Positions 3,247-4,390 of a stretch of DNA of 33,237 nt are shown here, one piece after another. The first letter of the stretch is position 1; each line of letters opens with the position of its first letter. The translations under genes and the position numbers were made by a program. The notes below the pieces were generated by a model. That model saw only the letters and a list, made by a program, of their open reading frames with translations. It ran no database searches and was not told where the DNA came from. Origin of the DNA: a virus (lineage: Duplodnaviria > Heunggongvirae > Uroviricota > Caudoviricetes); IMG/VR virus record IMGVR_UViG_2609459797_000007. One strand, 5' to 3'.

Positions 3247-3414
3247 ATGACAATTCAAACAAATGAACGCGCGCACCTGCTTGGGTTGTTACGTATCAAA
3301 TTGACCTTACTGAAAAAAGAAAAGCTGTCCACCAATGAAATTTATCGCAGCCTGGAAGACTGGATCTACAACAGAGAAAAGGCCGCAGAAATCAAGGAGC
3401 AAAAAAATGGTTAA
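3247..3414 (+). CDS. Hypothetical small protein (55 aa, MTIQTNERAHLLGLLRIKLTLLKKEKLSTNEIYRSLEDWIYNREKAAEIKEQKNG)
   Basis: Not in the supplied ORF track (below size cutoff). ATG at 3247 with an AGGAGG RBS 7 nt upstream. Its 3' end overlaps the methyltransferase start. Confidence 0.4.
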   Translation: MTIQTNERAHLLGLLRIKLTLLKKEKLSTNEIYRSLEDWIYNREKAAEIKEQKNG

Positions 3415-4390
3415 TTCCCCTCTGATCTGGGCGGGCGGCAAGTCTCGCGCGATGCCTCATGTACTGGAGGCTTTGCCAAAGGGTGAATGTCTCGTTGAGC
3501 CTTTTGTAGGTAGTGGTAGTGTCTTTCTGAACACTGACTATAAAACCTATATTCTGTGTGATAGCAACGCAGCGCTTATGAACTTCTATTCAATATTGAA
3601 GAGCAATACTAAATCGTTGCTAGATGTCGCTGCTACTCTATTTGATGGCGGTAATAATGAAGATGCATATTATAAACGCCGCAATGAATTTAATGATTTT
3701 AATCGTGGTTTTCCCCAGCATAATAAAAAAACTTCTGATGGAAAGGTTTATTATCAGAGTGAACTTGTAAAGTTTGCAGCATTATTCCTTTATCTAAACC
3801 GTCATTGCTATAACGGTTTATACCGAGTGAATGGGAAGAATGAATTTAACGTTCCATTTGGTCGTCGCCGCAAGCCAATTTTCCCTGTTGCAGAGATCCA
3901 GCACTTTGCAAAACGAGCATATGAGAAAGGTGCTCAGTTTCTTTGCGCTGATTTCCGTTACACCATCCCTGTTGCTAGTCGCATATTTGAGCGCACAGTA
4001 ATTTACTGTGATCCGCCTTACCTGCCAGCGAGTAAAACGGCTGATTTTACCGCGTACGGCAAACCCTTCACTGTCGATGATCACCGTGACCTGGTTGAGT
4101 CATTGATTACCGCTCATAACAACGAAGGATGCCTGTCTGTTTTTTCCGGTAGCGATACCCCGGAAACCCGCAAAATTTACTACCCGTTCACCCTTAATTC
4201 ATTCGAAATCCGCCGATCTGTAGGGGCCAAATCTCGCAACTTGGCTGGCGAGGTGATCGGCTCTCTACGCGTTTGTGGTTGTTGTGGGCGTACTGGCGGC
4301 GGTTGTCCTGATTGCGGTGCTGTGATGGGTGATGCGACCTATTCAGAAATGGTTGCCTCTGGTGCTTTTGATGATCAGGAGGTGTTCTGA
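3407..4390 (+). CDS. dam: DNA N6-adenine methyltransferase (Dam-like, alpha-class order FxGxG then DPPY) with a Cys-rich C-terminal tail
   Basis: Motif I ([11 protein letters not shown]) and motif IV ([13 protein letters not shown]) in Dam order. Start taken at ATG 3407 (AAGGAG RBS); the track's upstream start at 3335 lacks an RBS. C-terminal [15 protein letters not shown] looks like a zinc ribbon. Confidence 0.8.
   Translation: [327 protein letters not shown]

What the first reader, a model, noticed from the sequence alone, without database searches (positions are those of the whole stretch)
3407..4390. Dam-like methyltransferase with a Cys-rich C-terminal extension, flanked by two coupled micro-ORFs
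The alpha-class N6-adenine methyltransferase motifs are clear, but the last about 45 residues contain [15 protein letters not shown], which looks like a zinc ribbon and is not part of canonical Dam. Two small ORFs overlap its start and stop (3247..3414 and 4390..4563). An early-expressed methyltransferase could protect phage DNA from restriction or modulate gene expression.
Basis: partly seen in the sequence, partly recalled or inferred. Interest (0 to 1): 0.4.

Follow-up and report, generated by a model that had tools for sequence, protein, structure and literature searches.

The report
Prophage Dam methylase with portable zinc-knuckle tail
An ordinary GATC-type DNA adenine methylase of a P2-like prophage carries a short, very conserved four-cysteine tail; the same tail module sits in the uncharacterised part of the RecE recombination nuclease and in other phage DNA enzymes, so it is probably a shared docking tag.

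Summary
Window 3407..4390 (+) encodes a 327-aa Dam-family N6-adenine methyltransferase in the early operon of a complete P2-like prophage. The 55-aa ORF (3247..3414) overlaps its start by 8 nt. The 57-aa ORF (4390..4563) overlaps its stop by 1 nt. The enzyme core is ordinary and is already annotated as Dam in NCBI.

The last 38 residues are not a frameshift artefact. C290-x2-C293-x6-C300-x2-C303 is invariant in 60 of 60 aligned relatives, and the tail is more constrained than the catalytic core.

New here: the roughly 30-aa core (V-CxxCGxxGGGxCPDCGxVMGDATYxEM) is a portable module. It also occurs in the "unknown function" N-terminal region of E. coli RecE/exonuclease VIII, ahead of DnaQ-like 3'-5' exonuclease domains, and at the C-end of several small early proteins of enterobacterial temperate phages. 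No Pfam, NCBIfam or PDB family and no paper describes it.

The module is acidic and its surroundings are predicted to be flexible. Most Dam copies end in F-D-D/G-x-E-x-F, which resembles the SSB C-terminal tip.

I read the tail as a zinc-stabilised protein-docking tag. The partner is unknown. The downstream micro-ORF is a confidently predicted mini OB-fold protein.

The parts
3247..3414 (+). Upstream 55-aa early gene; its stop overlaps the Dam start by 8 nt (ATGGTTAA)
   Evidence: AGGAGG at 3235..3240. It hits phrog_12723 with E 2.7e-15. It is 58% identical to a 74-aa ORF of Klebsiella phage ST16-OXA48phi5.4 that is not next to that phage's Dam. Length and overlap are the same in L020-L025. 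The exact protein is annotated 'hypothetical protein' in Enterobacteriaceae on 130 contigs.
3407..4273 (+). Dam methyltransferase core, residues 1-289 (motif I FVGSGS 33-38; DNA-contact hairpin 135-154; DPPY 202-205)
   Evidence: PF02086 E 2.7e-51. TIGR00571 scores 222 bits against a cut-off of 114.85. E. coli Dam in the PDB scores E 3.7e-55. The AF2 model matches 4rtm/2g1p with TM 0.90 normalised to the target. The best PADLOC family is orphan MTase, E 3.8e-74.
4274..4318 (+). Four-Cys knuckle, residues 290-304: C290-G-C-C293-GRTGGG-C300-P-D-C303-G
   Evidence: C290, C293, C300 and C303 are invariant in 60 of 60 sequences; C292 is variable. AF2 pLDDT is 70-81 with a short beta-hairpin. The only PDB resemblances are weak ones to generic zinc ribbons such as TFIIB, rubredoxin-like proteins and LysW (E 0.2-1).
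4319..4354 (+). Conserved segment after the knuckle, residues 305-316 ([12 protein letters not shown]); with the knuckle it forms the portable module
   Evidence: V306, M307, G308, T311, Y312 and M315 are each conserved in 52-55 of 60 sequences. E. coli RecE has the same 13 residues, [13 protein letters not shown], starting at residue 528; 9 of the 13 codons differ and all differences are synonymous. A tail profile finds the module in RecE-like, DnaQ-like-exonuclease and small proteins.
4355..4390 (+). Flexible acidic tip, residues 317-327 ([11 protein letters not shown]), plus stop codon TGA; it contains the ribosome-binding site of the next gene (AGGAGG 4377..4382)
   Evidence: pLDDT is below 50. 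Of the 120 best homologues, 97 end in F, 90 in [DE]-x-F and 67 have F at -7 with an acidic residue at -6. The E. coli SSB tip is DFDDDIPF.
4390..4563 (+). Downstream 57-aa early gene; its start overlaps the Dam stop by 1 nt (TGATG); predicted mini OB-fold barrel
   Evidence: Against L020 it shows 17 synonymous and 5 non-synonymous codon changes. There are 22 homologue clusters, 20 of them 57 aa long (two are 60 aa), in Kluyvera, Citrobacter and E. coli. AF2 pLDDT is 94.6. The best Foldseek matches are OB folds, led by human SSB1 5d8e with TM 0.75 and rmsd 1.8 A, but E is only 0.05. It has homologues in Klebsiella and Enterobacter P2-like phages.
4570..7011 (+). Context: P2 gpA-type rolling-circle replication initiator (likely start ATG 4573)
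   Evidence: PF05840 Phage_GPA, E 2.8e-95.
2407..2679 (+). Context: Cox-like first gene of the early operon
   Evidence: The equivalent 90-aa gene in relatives carries PF10743 Phage_Cox. The gene order matches the P2 early operon, cox ... A.

Best explanation
The gene encodes an orphan Dam-family DNA adenine methyltransferase. It most likely targets GATC. It is expressed from the early (lytic) operon of a P2-like prophage, just upstream of the rolling-circle initiator gpA, and it is translationally coupled to a small gene on each side.

An autonomous tail of about 38 aa is appended to the enzyme. It has three parts: a CPxCG-type four-cysteine zinc knuckle, an invariant VMGDATYxEM segment, and a flexible acidic tip ending in Phe.

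The knuckle plus the VMGDATY segment form a portable module. Temperate phages of Enterobacterales have attached it to unrelated DNA-transaction proteins: Dam, RecE/exonuclease VIII, DnaQ-like 3'-5' exonucleases and several small early proteins.

I infer that the module does not bind DNA. I read it as a zinc-stabilised docking tag that brings these enzymes to one common partner on replicating or recombining phage DNA. For Dam, this would let methylation keep pace with rolling-circle replication.

The SSB-tip-like end (FDDQEVF against SSB FDDDIPF) suggests the SSB interaction network, or the adjacent mini OB-fold protein, as the partner.

Shown: the enzyme's identity, the reality and selection of the tail, and the mobility of the module. 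Inferred: zinc binding, the docking role and the partner.
For: Enzyme. Dam family profiles, the PDB sequence match and the fold all agree. DPPY and the equivalents of EcoDam R124, N126 and N132 are invariant. The gene is an orphan in the cox-to-A early operon.

The tail is real and selected.
- The four Cys are invariant in 60 of 60 sequences.
- Against L038, tail residues 288-316 show 11 synonymous and 2 non-synonymous changes, compared with 93 and 78 in the core.

The module is portable.
- A tail profile searched against 1.84 billion representative proteins gave 31 hits. They lie in Exonuc_VIII + PDDEXK proteins, in Exonuc_VIII or other N-termini fused to Rv2179c-like exonucleases, and at the C-end of unrelated 79-190 aa proteins.
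- PHROG 'exonuclease' families and the NCBIfam exodeoxyribonuclease VIII model match only the tail.
- E. coli RecE carries [13 protein letters not shown] identically, with 9 of 13 codons changed synonymously.
- One small carrier sits in a lambdoid recombination module, between an RdgC-domain gene (PF04381) and the integrase, downstream of RecT.

Docking rather than DNA binding.
- The module's net charge is 0 to -5 in the intact (non-frameshifted) carriers, and it lies in acidic Q/E/P-rich linkers.
- AF2 gives no confident structure beyond about residue 300.

Tip. 97 of 120 homologues end in F, and 67 of 120 have F at -7, an acidic residue at -6 and F at -1, as SSB does. The tip is also kept where the next gene lies 200-270 nt away.

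Literature. A 2023 review describes the RecE N-terminal domain as being of unknown function (PMC11611040).
Against: - No experiment or complex prediction supports any partner.
- Zinc binding is inferred from sequence only, and the knuckle's pLDDT is only 70-81.
- A viable isolated phage, Klebsiella phage 3LV2017, has lost the knuckle through a frameshift or deletion, so the knuckle is dispensable for plaque formation.
- A whole Klebsiella clade lacks the acidic Phe tip and ends ...AEMFGAPAC. The tip is therefore not part of the universal module.
- In the window's clade, the tip codons also carry the ribosome-binding site of the next gene. This could explain part of their conservation there.
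- The tip/OB-gene co-occurrence (49/11 against 4/27) is confounded by phylogeny.
- Methylation of GATC is inferred, not measured. Enterobacterales hosts are expected (from general knowledge, not checked here) to have their own Dam, so the benefit to the phage is unclear.
Confidence: 0.5

Rival explanations
1. The tail is a nucleic-acid-binding zinc ribbon. It would raise Dam's affinity or processivity on DNA, or target single-stranded or hemimethylated DNA; in RecE and the exonucleases it would act as an extra DNA clamp.
For: All identifiable carrier domains act on DNA, and small zinc ribbons often bind nucleic acids. The weak PDB resemblances are to the TFIIB and RNA polymerase zinc ribbons.
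Against: The module has at most one or two basic residues, and its net charge is 0 to -5 in the intact (non-frameshifted) carriers. In RecE-type proteins it is flanked by strongly acidic linkers. AF2 does not place it confidently against the DNA-binding face. The conservation covers every surface residue of a 30-aa peptide, including the G-rich loop and VMGDATY, which fits a specific protein interface better than a phosphate-backbone contact.
Confidence: 0.2
2. The tail is a cis-regulatory or stability element. In one version the acidic Phe-ended tip folds back on Dam's basic DNA-binding groove and autoinhibits it, as the tails of SSB and T7 gp2.5 do on their own OB folds. In another version the tail is a protease recognition tag that limits the lifetime of a potentially mutagenic methylase.
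For: The end is disordered, acidic and finishes in a hydrophobic residue. The gene sits in a tightly regulated early operon.
Against: This does not explain why the same knuckle module sits in the middle of RecE-type proteins and at the end of unrelated small proteins that lack the acidic tip. The knuckle is the best-conserved part, not the tip.
Confidence: 0.15
3. The enzyme is not a GATC methylase. Replacing both EcoDam first-base-pair contacts (K9 to I7, Y138 to R154) would have relaxed or changed its specificity, for example to NATC or another first base.
For: K9 and Y138 are the first-base-pair readers of EcoDam, and that contact is not conserved across the Dam family (PMC4417163). The window has I7 and R154 at those positions.
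Against: The two positions covary perfectly across 60 relatives: K with Y/F/H in 47, and I/L with R in 13. T4 Dam, annotated in its RefSeq record as producing N6-methyladenine in GATC sites, has A6 and R130 at the same alignment columns. This looks like the T4Dam-type way of reading the same G. The contacts to the second half-site are all kept.
Confidence: 0.1
4. The Cys-rich end is an annotation or sequencing artefact (a frameshift) or a decaying, functionless remnant.
For: A few relatives do carry broken tails, for example 3LV2017, P0020 and single Cys losses in P0061, P0081, P0096 and P0104.
Against: The tail is in frame in more than 100 independent sequences from several genera. It shows an excess of synonymous change and is more conserved than the enzyme core.
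Confidence: 0.02

Closest known systems
Escherichia coli Dam (EcoDam; PDB 2g1p, 4rtm and related entries)
   Same: Same fold (TM 0.90 normalised to the target), 35-38% identity, motif I, DPPY, and the contacts Y119/N120/L122/R124/P134 to the second half of GATC.
   Different: It scores below the cut-off of the host-Dam equivalog model (226.8 against 441 bits). It has I7 and R154 in place of the first-base-pair readers K9 and Y138. There is a 20-aa insertion at residues ~98-121. EcoDam has no Cys knuckle or acidic tail.
Bacteriophage T4 Dam
   Same: It is a phage-encoded orphan GATC methylase. It has the same residue pattern at the two first-base-pair positions: no Lys at the K9 column, and Arg at the Y138 column (T4 R130).
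   Different: Only about 25% identical overall. T4 Dam has no C-terminal extension and belongs to a lytic phage of a different family.
Long Dam proteins of other Peduoviridae (Klebsiella phage ST16-OXA48phi5.4, Enterobacter phage phiT5282H, and many Klebsiella, Citrobacter, Enterobacter, Salmonella and E. coli prophages)
   Same: Same architecture of Dam plus a four-Cys tail, in the same early-operon position before the replication initiator; 47-58% identical.
   Different: Most use K/Y at the first-base-pair positions. One Klebsiella clade lacks both the acidic Phe tip and the 57-aa gene. All are annotated simply as Dam; the tail is not annotated anywhere I looked.
N-terminal region of Rac-prophage RecE (exonuclease VIII), residues ~514-545
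   Same: It carries the same module, [28 protein letters not shown], kept by purifying selection. The region's function is unknown (PMC11611040).
   Different: In RecE the module is internal, sitting in an acidic linker just before the nuclease domain (564-866). There it is attached to a 5'-3' exonuclease, not a methylase.
C-terminal tip of bacterial SSB (MDFDDDIPF), and the acidic Phe-ended tails of T7 gp2.5 and gp4
   Same: A disordered acidic C-terminus ending in Phe. In the Dam tip, F at -7, D at -6 and F at -1 match the SSB spacing. The SSB tip recruits at least 17 partner proteins (PMC10018359 abstract). The T7 comparison rests on my own knowledge.
   Different: This is a resemblance only. 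There is no Pro at -2 in the window (V instead), fewer acidic residues, and the tip is attached to an enzyme rather than to an OB-fold ssDNA binder. Binding was not tested.

Membership tests
Dam family / D12-class N6-adenine DNA methyltransferase (PF02086, TIGR00571) | Profile score above the curated cut-offs | tested here: met
   PF02086 175.2 bits against a cut-off of 22; TIGR00571 222.4 bits against 114.85.
Dam family / D12-class N6-adenine DNA methyltransferase (PF02086, TIGR00571) | AdoMet motif I (FxGxG) before the target-recognition region, and catalytic DPPY after it (alpha-class order) | tested here: met
   FVGSGS at 33-38 and DPPY at 202-205, invariant in 60 of 60 relatives.
Dam family / D12-class N6-adenine DNA methyltransferase (PF02086, TIGR00571) | Dam fold | tested here: met
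   The AF2 model (pTM 0.79) matches 4rtm/2g1p with E 2.7e-24 and TM 0.90 normalised to the target.
Dam family / D12-class N6-adenine DNA methyltransferase (PF02086, TIGR00571) | GATC-reading residues | tested here: inconclusive
   The second half-site readers are kept (Y135, N136, L138, R140, P150). The first-base-pair readers are of T4Dam type (I7/R154) rather than EcoDam type (K9/Y138).
Dam family / D12-class N6-adenine DNA methyltransferase (PF02086, TIGR00571) | N6-adenine methylation of GATC | not testable with these tools
   This needs expression in a dam-minus host with DpnI/MboI digestion or SMRT/nanopore methylation calling.
Host (housekeeping) Dam equivalog (NCBIfam NF008152) | Score at or above the equivalog cut-off | tested here: not met
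   226.8 bits against a cut-off of 441. The gene lies in a prophage early operon.
Zinc ribbon / zinc knuckle (CPxCG type) | Two CxxC pairs with conserved spacing | tested here: met
   C290-x2-C293-x6(7)-C300-x2-C303 is invariant in 60 of 60 sequences, and a CxxC-x(4-12)-CxxC match is present in 115 of the 120 best homologues.
Zinc ribbon / zinc knuckle (CPxCG type) | Membership of a described zinc-finger family, or similarity to a solved one | tested here: not met
   Pfam and NCBIfam have no zinc-finger model that hits it. The best PDB profile hits have E 0.2-1.
Zinc ribbon / zinc knuckle (CPxCG type) | Knuckle/hairpin geometry and bound metal | tested here: inconclusive
   AF2 gives a short hairpin at 289-296 with pLDDT of only 70-81. 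Metal content cannot be tested here.
RecE-type shared module (undescribed; defined here by profile A3) | Significant profile match and collinear identity with the RecE segment | tested here: met
   Hits at E 1e-10 to 1e-6 against 1.84 billion proteins. NF007259 matches residues 288-315 only, E 1.2e-5. Thirteen consecutive residues are identical to E. coli RecE.
SSB-Ct-like acidic tip | Disordered acidic C-terminus ending in Phe with SSB-like spacing | tested here: met
   The window ends AFDDQEVF. Of 120 homologues, 97 end in F and 67 match F[DE]xxxxF at the C-terminus. pLDDT is below 50.
SSB-Ct-like acidic tip | Binding to SSB-interacting proteins or to an OB fold | not testable with these tools
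   This needs peptide-binding assays or complex prediction.
OB fold (downstream 57-aa protein) | Five-stranded barrel with significant similarity to known OB folds | tested here: inconclusive
   AF2 pLDDT 94.6 with four long strands, a short helix and a final strand. The top Foldseek hits are OB folds (TM 0.75), but the best E is 0.05.

The most novel reading that the evidence does not exclude
The ~30-aa four-Cys module is a previously undescribed portable docking tag. Through it, unrelated early enzymes of enterobacterial temperate phages (Dam, RecE, DnaQ-like exonucleases and small proteins of unknown function) would all plug into one host hub at replicating or recombining DNA.

In the P2-like Dams a second element, an SSB-tip mimic, would dock on the co-translated mini OB-fold protein or compete for SSB partner proteins. 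Dam plus the mini-OB protein would then form a split, SSB-like unit that rides on the displaced strand of rolling-circle replication.
Probability: 0.2. Interest if true: 0.7.

Novelty: new variant of a known kind. Interest (0 to 1): 0.5.

Why it matters
The methylase itself is routine. The value lies in the tail.

The tail is a short module under stronger selection than the enzyme it is attached to. It links three kinds of phage DNA enzyme that were not known to share anything. It also lies in the part of RecE whose function has been open since the nuclease domain was defined; full-length RecE is the form needed for efficient linear-linear recombineering (PMC11611040).

If the module is a docking tag, one pull-down with a 30-aa peptide could identify the partner for all of these proteins. 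That would explain why full-length RecE outperforms the truncated nuclease, and how a prophage methylase is brought to its own replicating DNA.

The natural K/Y to I/R swap at the first-base-pair readers is also a tidy evolutionary counterpart of the engineered EcoDam-to-T4Dam transition.

Tried and rejected
- Megablast of the locus against the phage collection found nothing.
- tblastn with the tail alone was defeated by the low-complexity filter.
- Pfam, NCBIfam and PDB sequence searches found no described family for the tail.
- Literature searches gave no description of the module. I searched for 'CPDCG', for RecE with zinc, and for the N-terminus of full-length RecE. One search was spoiled because 'RecE' matched 'receptor'.
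- GATC is not depleted or enriched (141 observed, 129-162 expected). The sequence therefore shows no sign of restriction avoidance.
- The window has no second copy of the module.
- The 3'-5' exonucleases next to Dam in Klebsiella P2-like phages do not carry the module.
- The two micro-ORFs and three neighbouring early ORFs have no detectable similarity to P2 Orf78-83, gpB or Orf91.
- The promoter/terminator scan gave nothing above shuffled expectation in the operon.
- The association between the tip and the OB gene is strong in raw counts, but I do not rely on it. The 'no tip, no OB' class is essentially one clade, and 11 tip-bearing loci lack the OB gene.
- Elsawy et al. 2009 could not be retrieved. 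What I say about its content beyond the title rests on memory.
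Full report
**What is at the coordinates**

The window is a complete P2-like prophage. The integrase lies at 1..981 (-). A Cox-like gene at 2407..2679 opens the early operon, and a gpA-type rolling-circle initiator lies at 4570..7011 (PF05840, E 2.8e-95). The right end (32212..33000) matches the host gene fieF at 82% identity. The window is identical to IMG/VR contig IMGVR_UViG_2609460356_000007.

The gene in question runs from ATG 3407 to TGA 4388..4390 and encodes 327 aa. The mechanical ORF list offers an earlier ATG at 3335. Every homologue, however, starts at the M-[IV]-x-S-P-[LI]-x-W-A-G-G-K position, and an AAGGAG precedes ATG 3407.

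**The enzyme**

- PF02086 (D12-class N6-adenine methyltransferase) matches residues 8-264 with E 2.7e-51.
- TIGR00571 'dam' scores 222 bits against a cut-off of 114.85. The equivalog model for the housekeeping Dam is not reached (226.8 against 441 bits).
- E. coli Dam structures are the best sequence match in the PDB (E 3.7e-55).
- They are also the best fold match for an AlphaFold2 model (mean pLDDT 78.6, pTM 0.79; 4rtm E 2.7e-24; TM 0.90 normalised to the target).
- Motif I (FVGSGS, 33-38) precedes the DNA-recognition region and DPPY (202-205) follows it, which is the alpha-class order.
- PADLOC's best family is 'orphan methyltransferase'. No nuclease gene lies nearby.
- The exact protein is already in NCBI as 'Dam family site-specific DNA-(adenine-N6)-methyltransferase' from Citrobacter, E. 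coli and Salmonella.

As an enzyme it is therefore known and ordinary.

**Which sequence it reads**

The EcoDam residues that contact the second half of GATC, or intercalate, are Y119, N120, L122, R124 and P134. They correspond to Y135, N136, L138, R140 and P150 in the window. R140 is invariant and N136 and P150 nearly so (57 and 56 of 60); Y135 and L138 vary conservatively (Y/F; L/V/I) across the 60 relatives.

The two EcoDam residues credited with reading the first base pair are K9 and Y138 (PMC4417163). Here they are I7 and R154. Across the 60 relatives these two positions covary without exception: K with Y/F/H in 47 sequences, and I/L with R in 13.

T4 Dam is annotated in its RefSeq record as producing N6-methyladenine in GATC sites, and it has A6 and R130 at the same alignment columns. 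The window's clade thus carries the T4Dam-type arrangement on an EcoDam-like scaffold.

[quoted passage not shown] I could not read it. I conclude that GATC is most likely retained and give a changed specificity about 10%.

GATC occurs 141 times in the prophage against 129-162 expected, so it is neither avoided nor enriched.

**The tail is real**

The family profiles and the PDB alignment stop between residues 264 and 289. The remaining 38 residues read [39 protein letters not shown].

- Of the 120 best homologues, 115 have a CxxC-x(4-12)-CxxC match in the tail. They are 311-330 aa Dams from Klebsiella, Citrobacter, Enterobacter, Salmonella, Kosakonia and E. coli prophages, and from isolated Peduoviridae.
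- In a 60-sequence alignment C290, C293, C300 and C303 are invariant, whereas C292 is not.
- Codon comparisons show the tail is more constrained than the catalytic core. Against L038, residues 288-316 have 11 synonymous and 2 non-synonymous differences; the core has 93 and 78.

This excludes a frameshift artefact.

AlphaFold gives the knuckle a pLDDT of 70-81 with a short hairpin. Everything after about residue 300 scores below 50, so it is predicted to be flexible.

**The tail is a portable module**

This is the main new result.

- A PHROG scan with the tail alone hit only the middle of two 'exonuclease' families.
- NCBIfam's exodeoxyribonuclease VIII model matched residues 288-315 only.
- A profile of 12 tails searched against 1.84 billion representative proteins returned 31 hits.

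After removing three repetitive false positives, the carriers fall into five groups:
1. other long Dams;
2. RecE-like proteins with an Exonuc_VIII N-terminus and a PDDEXK nuclease C-terminus;
3. proteins in which the module precedes an Rv2179c-like DnaQ-type 3'-5' exonuclease;
4. RecE-N-terminus proteins with no recognisable nuclease;
5. at least five unrelated small proteins (79-190 aa) with the module at their C-end.

One of the small carriers sits in a lambdoid early-left recombination module, between an RdgC-domain gene (PF04381) and the integrase, downstream of RecT.

The canonical 866-aa E. coli RecE contains ...[33 protein letters not shown]... around residue 528. The 13 residues [13 protein letters not shown] are identical to those in the window, yet 9 of the 13 codons differ, all synonymously. 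The sharing is therefore old and maintained by selection on the peptide. It is not a recent DNA exchange.

The window holds only this one copy of the module.

No Pfam, NCBIfam or PDB entry covers the module, and no paper mentioning it was found. [quoted passage not shown]

**What the module probably does**

The conserved core is [V/I]-C-x-x-C-G-x-x-G-G-G-(x)-C-P-D-C-G-x-V-M-G-D-A-T-Y-x-E-M-[F/V].

- Its net charge is 0 to -5 in the intact (non-frameshifted) carriers.
- In RecE-type proteins it is embedded in long acidic, Q/E/P-rich linkers.
- Nearly every residue is conserved, not only the cysteines.

Taken together, these features fit a small metal-stabilised peptide that presents one specific face to a protein partner. 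They fit a nucleic-acid-binding finger less well.

The carriers come from both P2-like and lambdoid phages, which share few proteins. A host factor present in Enterobacterales is therefore the most economical partner.

For Dam, docking at replicating DNA would make sense. P2-type rolling-circle replication produces hemimethylated or unmethylated GATC quickly, and the gene sits immediately before the initiator gene A. This step is inference, and I put the docking-tag reading at about 0.4-0.5.

**The tip**

Beyond the module, most Dams of this family end in a flexible acidic stretch that finishes in Phe:
- 97 of 120 end in F;
- 90 of 120 end in [DE]-x-F;
- 67 of 120 have F at -7, an acidic residue at -6 and F at -1.

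The window's FDDQEVF has the same spacing as the E. coli SSB tip, FDDDIPF. SSB uses that nine-residue tip to recruit at least 17 partner proteins. From general knowledge, acidic Phe-ended tails are also used by T7 gp2.5 and gp4.

Caveats:
- In the window's clade the tip codons contain the ribosome-binding site of the next gene (AGGAGG, 4377..4382). The tip is nevertheless kept in Klebsiella and Citrobacter prophages where that gene lies 200-270 nt away.
- A Klebsiella clade lacks the tip altogether and ends ...AEMFGAPAC.
- Klebsiella phage 3LV2017 has lost the knuckle through a frameshift or deletion and is still a viable isolate.

**The micro-ORFs**

Both are real, conserved genes.

The upstream 55-aa ORF:
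- It has its own AGGAGG and belongs to phrog_12723 (E 2.7e-15).
- It keeps its length and its 8-nt overlap in relatives that are 87-94% identical at the DNA level.
- It has a homologue in Klebsiella phage ST16-OXA48phi5.4 that is not adjacent to Dam.

The downstream 57-aa ORF:
- It shows 17 synonymous and 5 non-synonymous changes against L020.
- It has homologues in Kluyvera, Citrobacter and E. coli, 20 of the 22 clusters being 57 aa long, and in Klebsiella and Enterobacter P2-like phages.
- It is predicted with pLDDT 94.6 as a small beta-barrel.
- Its best structural neighbours are OB folds (human SSB1 5d8e, TM 0.75, rmsd 1.8 A; S28e, Mop, Teb1, HIN), although the best E-value is only 0.05.

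Neither ORF resembles P2 Orf78-83. The overlaps ATGGTTAA and TGATG are the usual signature of translational coupling in phage operons. The ORFs are early-operon neighbours, not Dam-specific accessories.

Across 95 Dam loci the Phe tip and the OB gene co-occur: 49 loci have both and 11 have only the tip, whereas 4 have only the OB gene and 27 have neither. The last class is nearly one clade, and the four exceptions end in near-tip sequences (...AEGL...DEETI). I treat this as a lead only. An SSB-like tip next to a mini OB fold is suggestive, but it is not tested.

**Verdict**

The methylase is a known kind of enzyme that is already annotated. The tail is a new variant feature: an undescribed, strongly selected, portable four-Cys module shared with RecE and other phage DNA enzymes. 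Its function is not established. The most likely role is protein docking, and a single pull-down experiment could settle it for all carriers.

Noticed in passing
window 3425..3427 (I7) and 3866..3868 (R154): The two residues at the EcoDam first-base-pair reader positions (K9, Y138) are I and R. Across 60 long Dams they covary perfectly: K with Y/F/H in 47, and I/L with R in 13. T4 Dam has A6 and R130 at the same columns, so this is a natural EcoDam-to-T4Dam-type switch on an EcoDam scaffold.
   Followed up: yes
window 4390..4563: The 57-aa downstream protein is predicted with very high confidence (pLDDT 94.6) as a mini beta-barrel. Its best structural neighbours are OB folds, led by human SSB1 with TM 0.75, but the best E is only 0.05. 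Sources annotate it only as 'hypothetical protein'.
   Followed up: yes
window 4355..4563 and loci L001-L109: The acidic Phe-ended tip of Dam and the mini-OB gene co-occur in raw counts over 95 loci: 49 have both, 11 have only the tip, 4 have only the OB gene and 27 have neither. The last class is almost a single Klebsiella clade, so the association is confounded by phylogeny.
   Followed up: partly
window 4377..4382: The Shine-Dalgarno sequence (AGGAGG) of the 57-aa gene lies inside the codons for Q-E-V of the Dam tip. Two constraints therefore overlap on the same bases.
   Followed up: partly
window 1..981 and 32212..33237: The window is a whole prophage, identical to IMGVR_UViG_2609460356_000007. 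It runs from the integrase at the left end to host fieF at the right end (82% identical to Salmonella and E. coli). A close relative is integrated next to cpxP-cpxR-cpxA.
   Followed up: partly
window 7373..9651 (- strand): Three ORFs (264, 145 and 358 aa) follow gene A, in the position of the P2 old/tin cargo. None has a Pfam family. The first has a weak PADLOC hit to candidate system PDC-S54 (E 1.5e-7). Relatives carry an AAA ATPase plus an S8 peptidase in this position instead.
   Followed up: partly
L027:1501-2469 (Klebsiella phage 3LV2017): This isolated phage's Dam has lost the Cys knuckle through a frameshift or deletion (...EVIGVLRGDVGRNSGACGAW...GFDNGEPSDEHA) but keeps the 57-aa gene. 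The knuckle is therefore dispensable for viability.
   Followed up: yes
L051:3867-4223: In Klebsiella-type loci that have the Phe tip but lack the OB gene, a different small ORF follows Dam. It also ends in an acidic Phe tail (...SPDEELPF).
   Followed up: no
P0121 (65 aa), P0146 and P0151: These are deletion or fragment derivatives of long Dams. For example, the first 14 residues are fused directly to the tail. They show that the tail can survive decay of the enzyme.
   Followed up: no
window 2697..3414: None of the small early ORFs between cox and Dam resembles P2 Orf78-83 or gpB. The 62-aa ORF (2697..2885) does match ORFs of Klebsiella phage phi5.4 and Enterobacter phage phiT5282H. No gpB-like helicase-loader gene was seen in this early operon.
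   Followed up: partly
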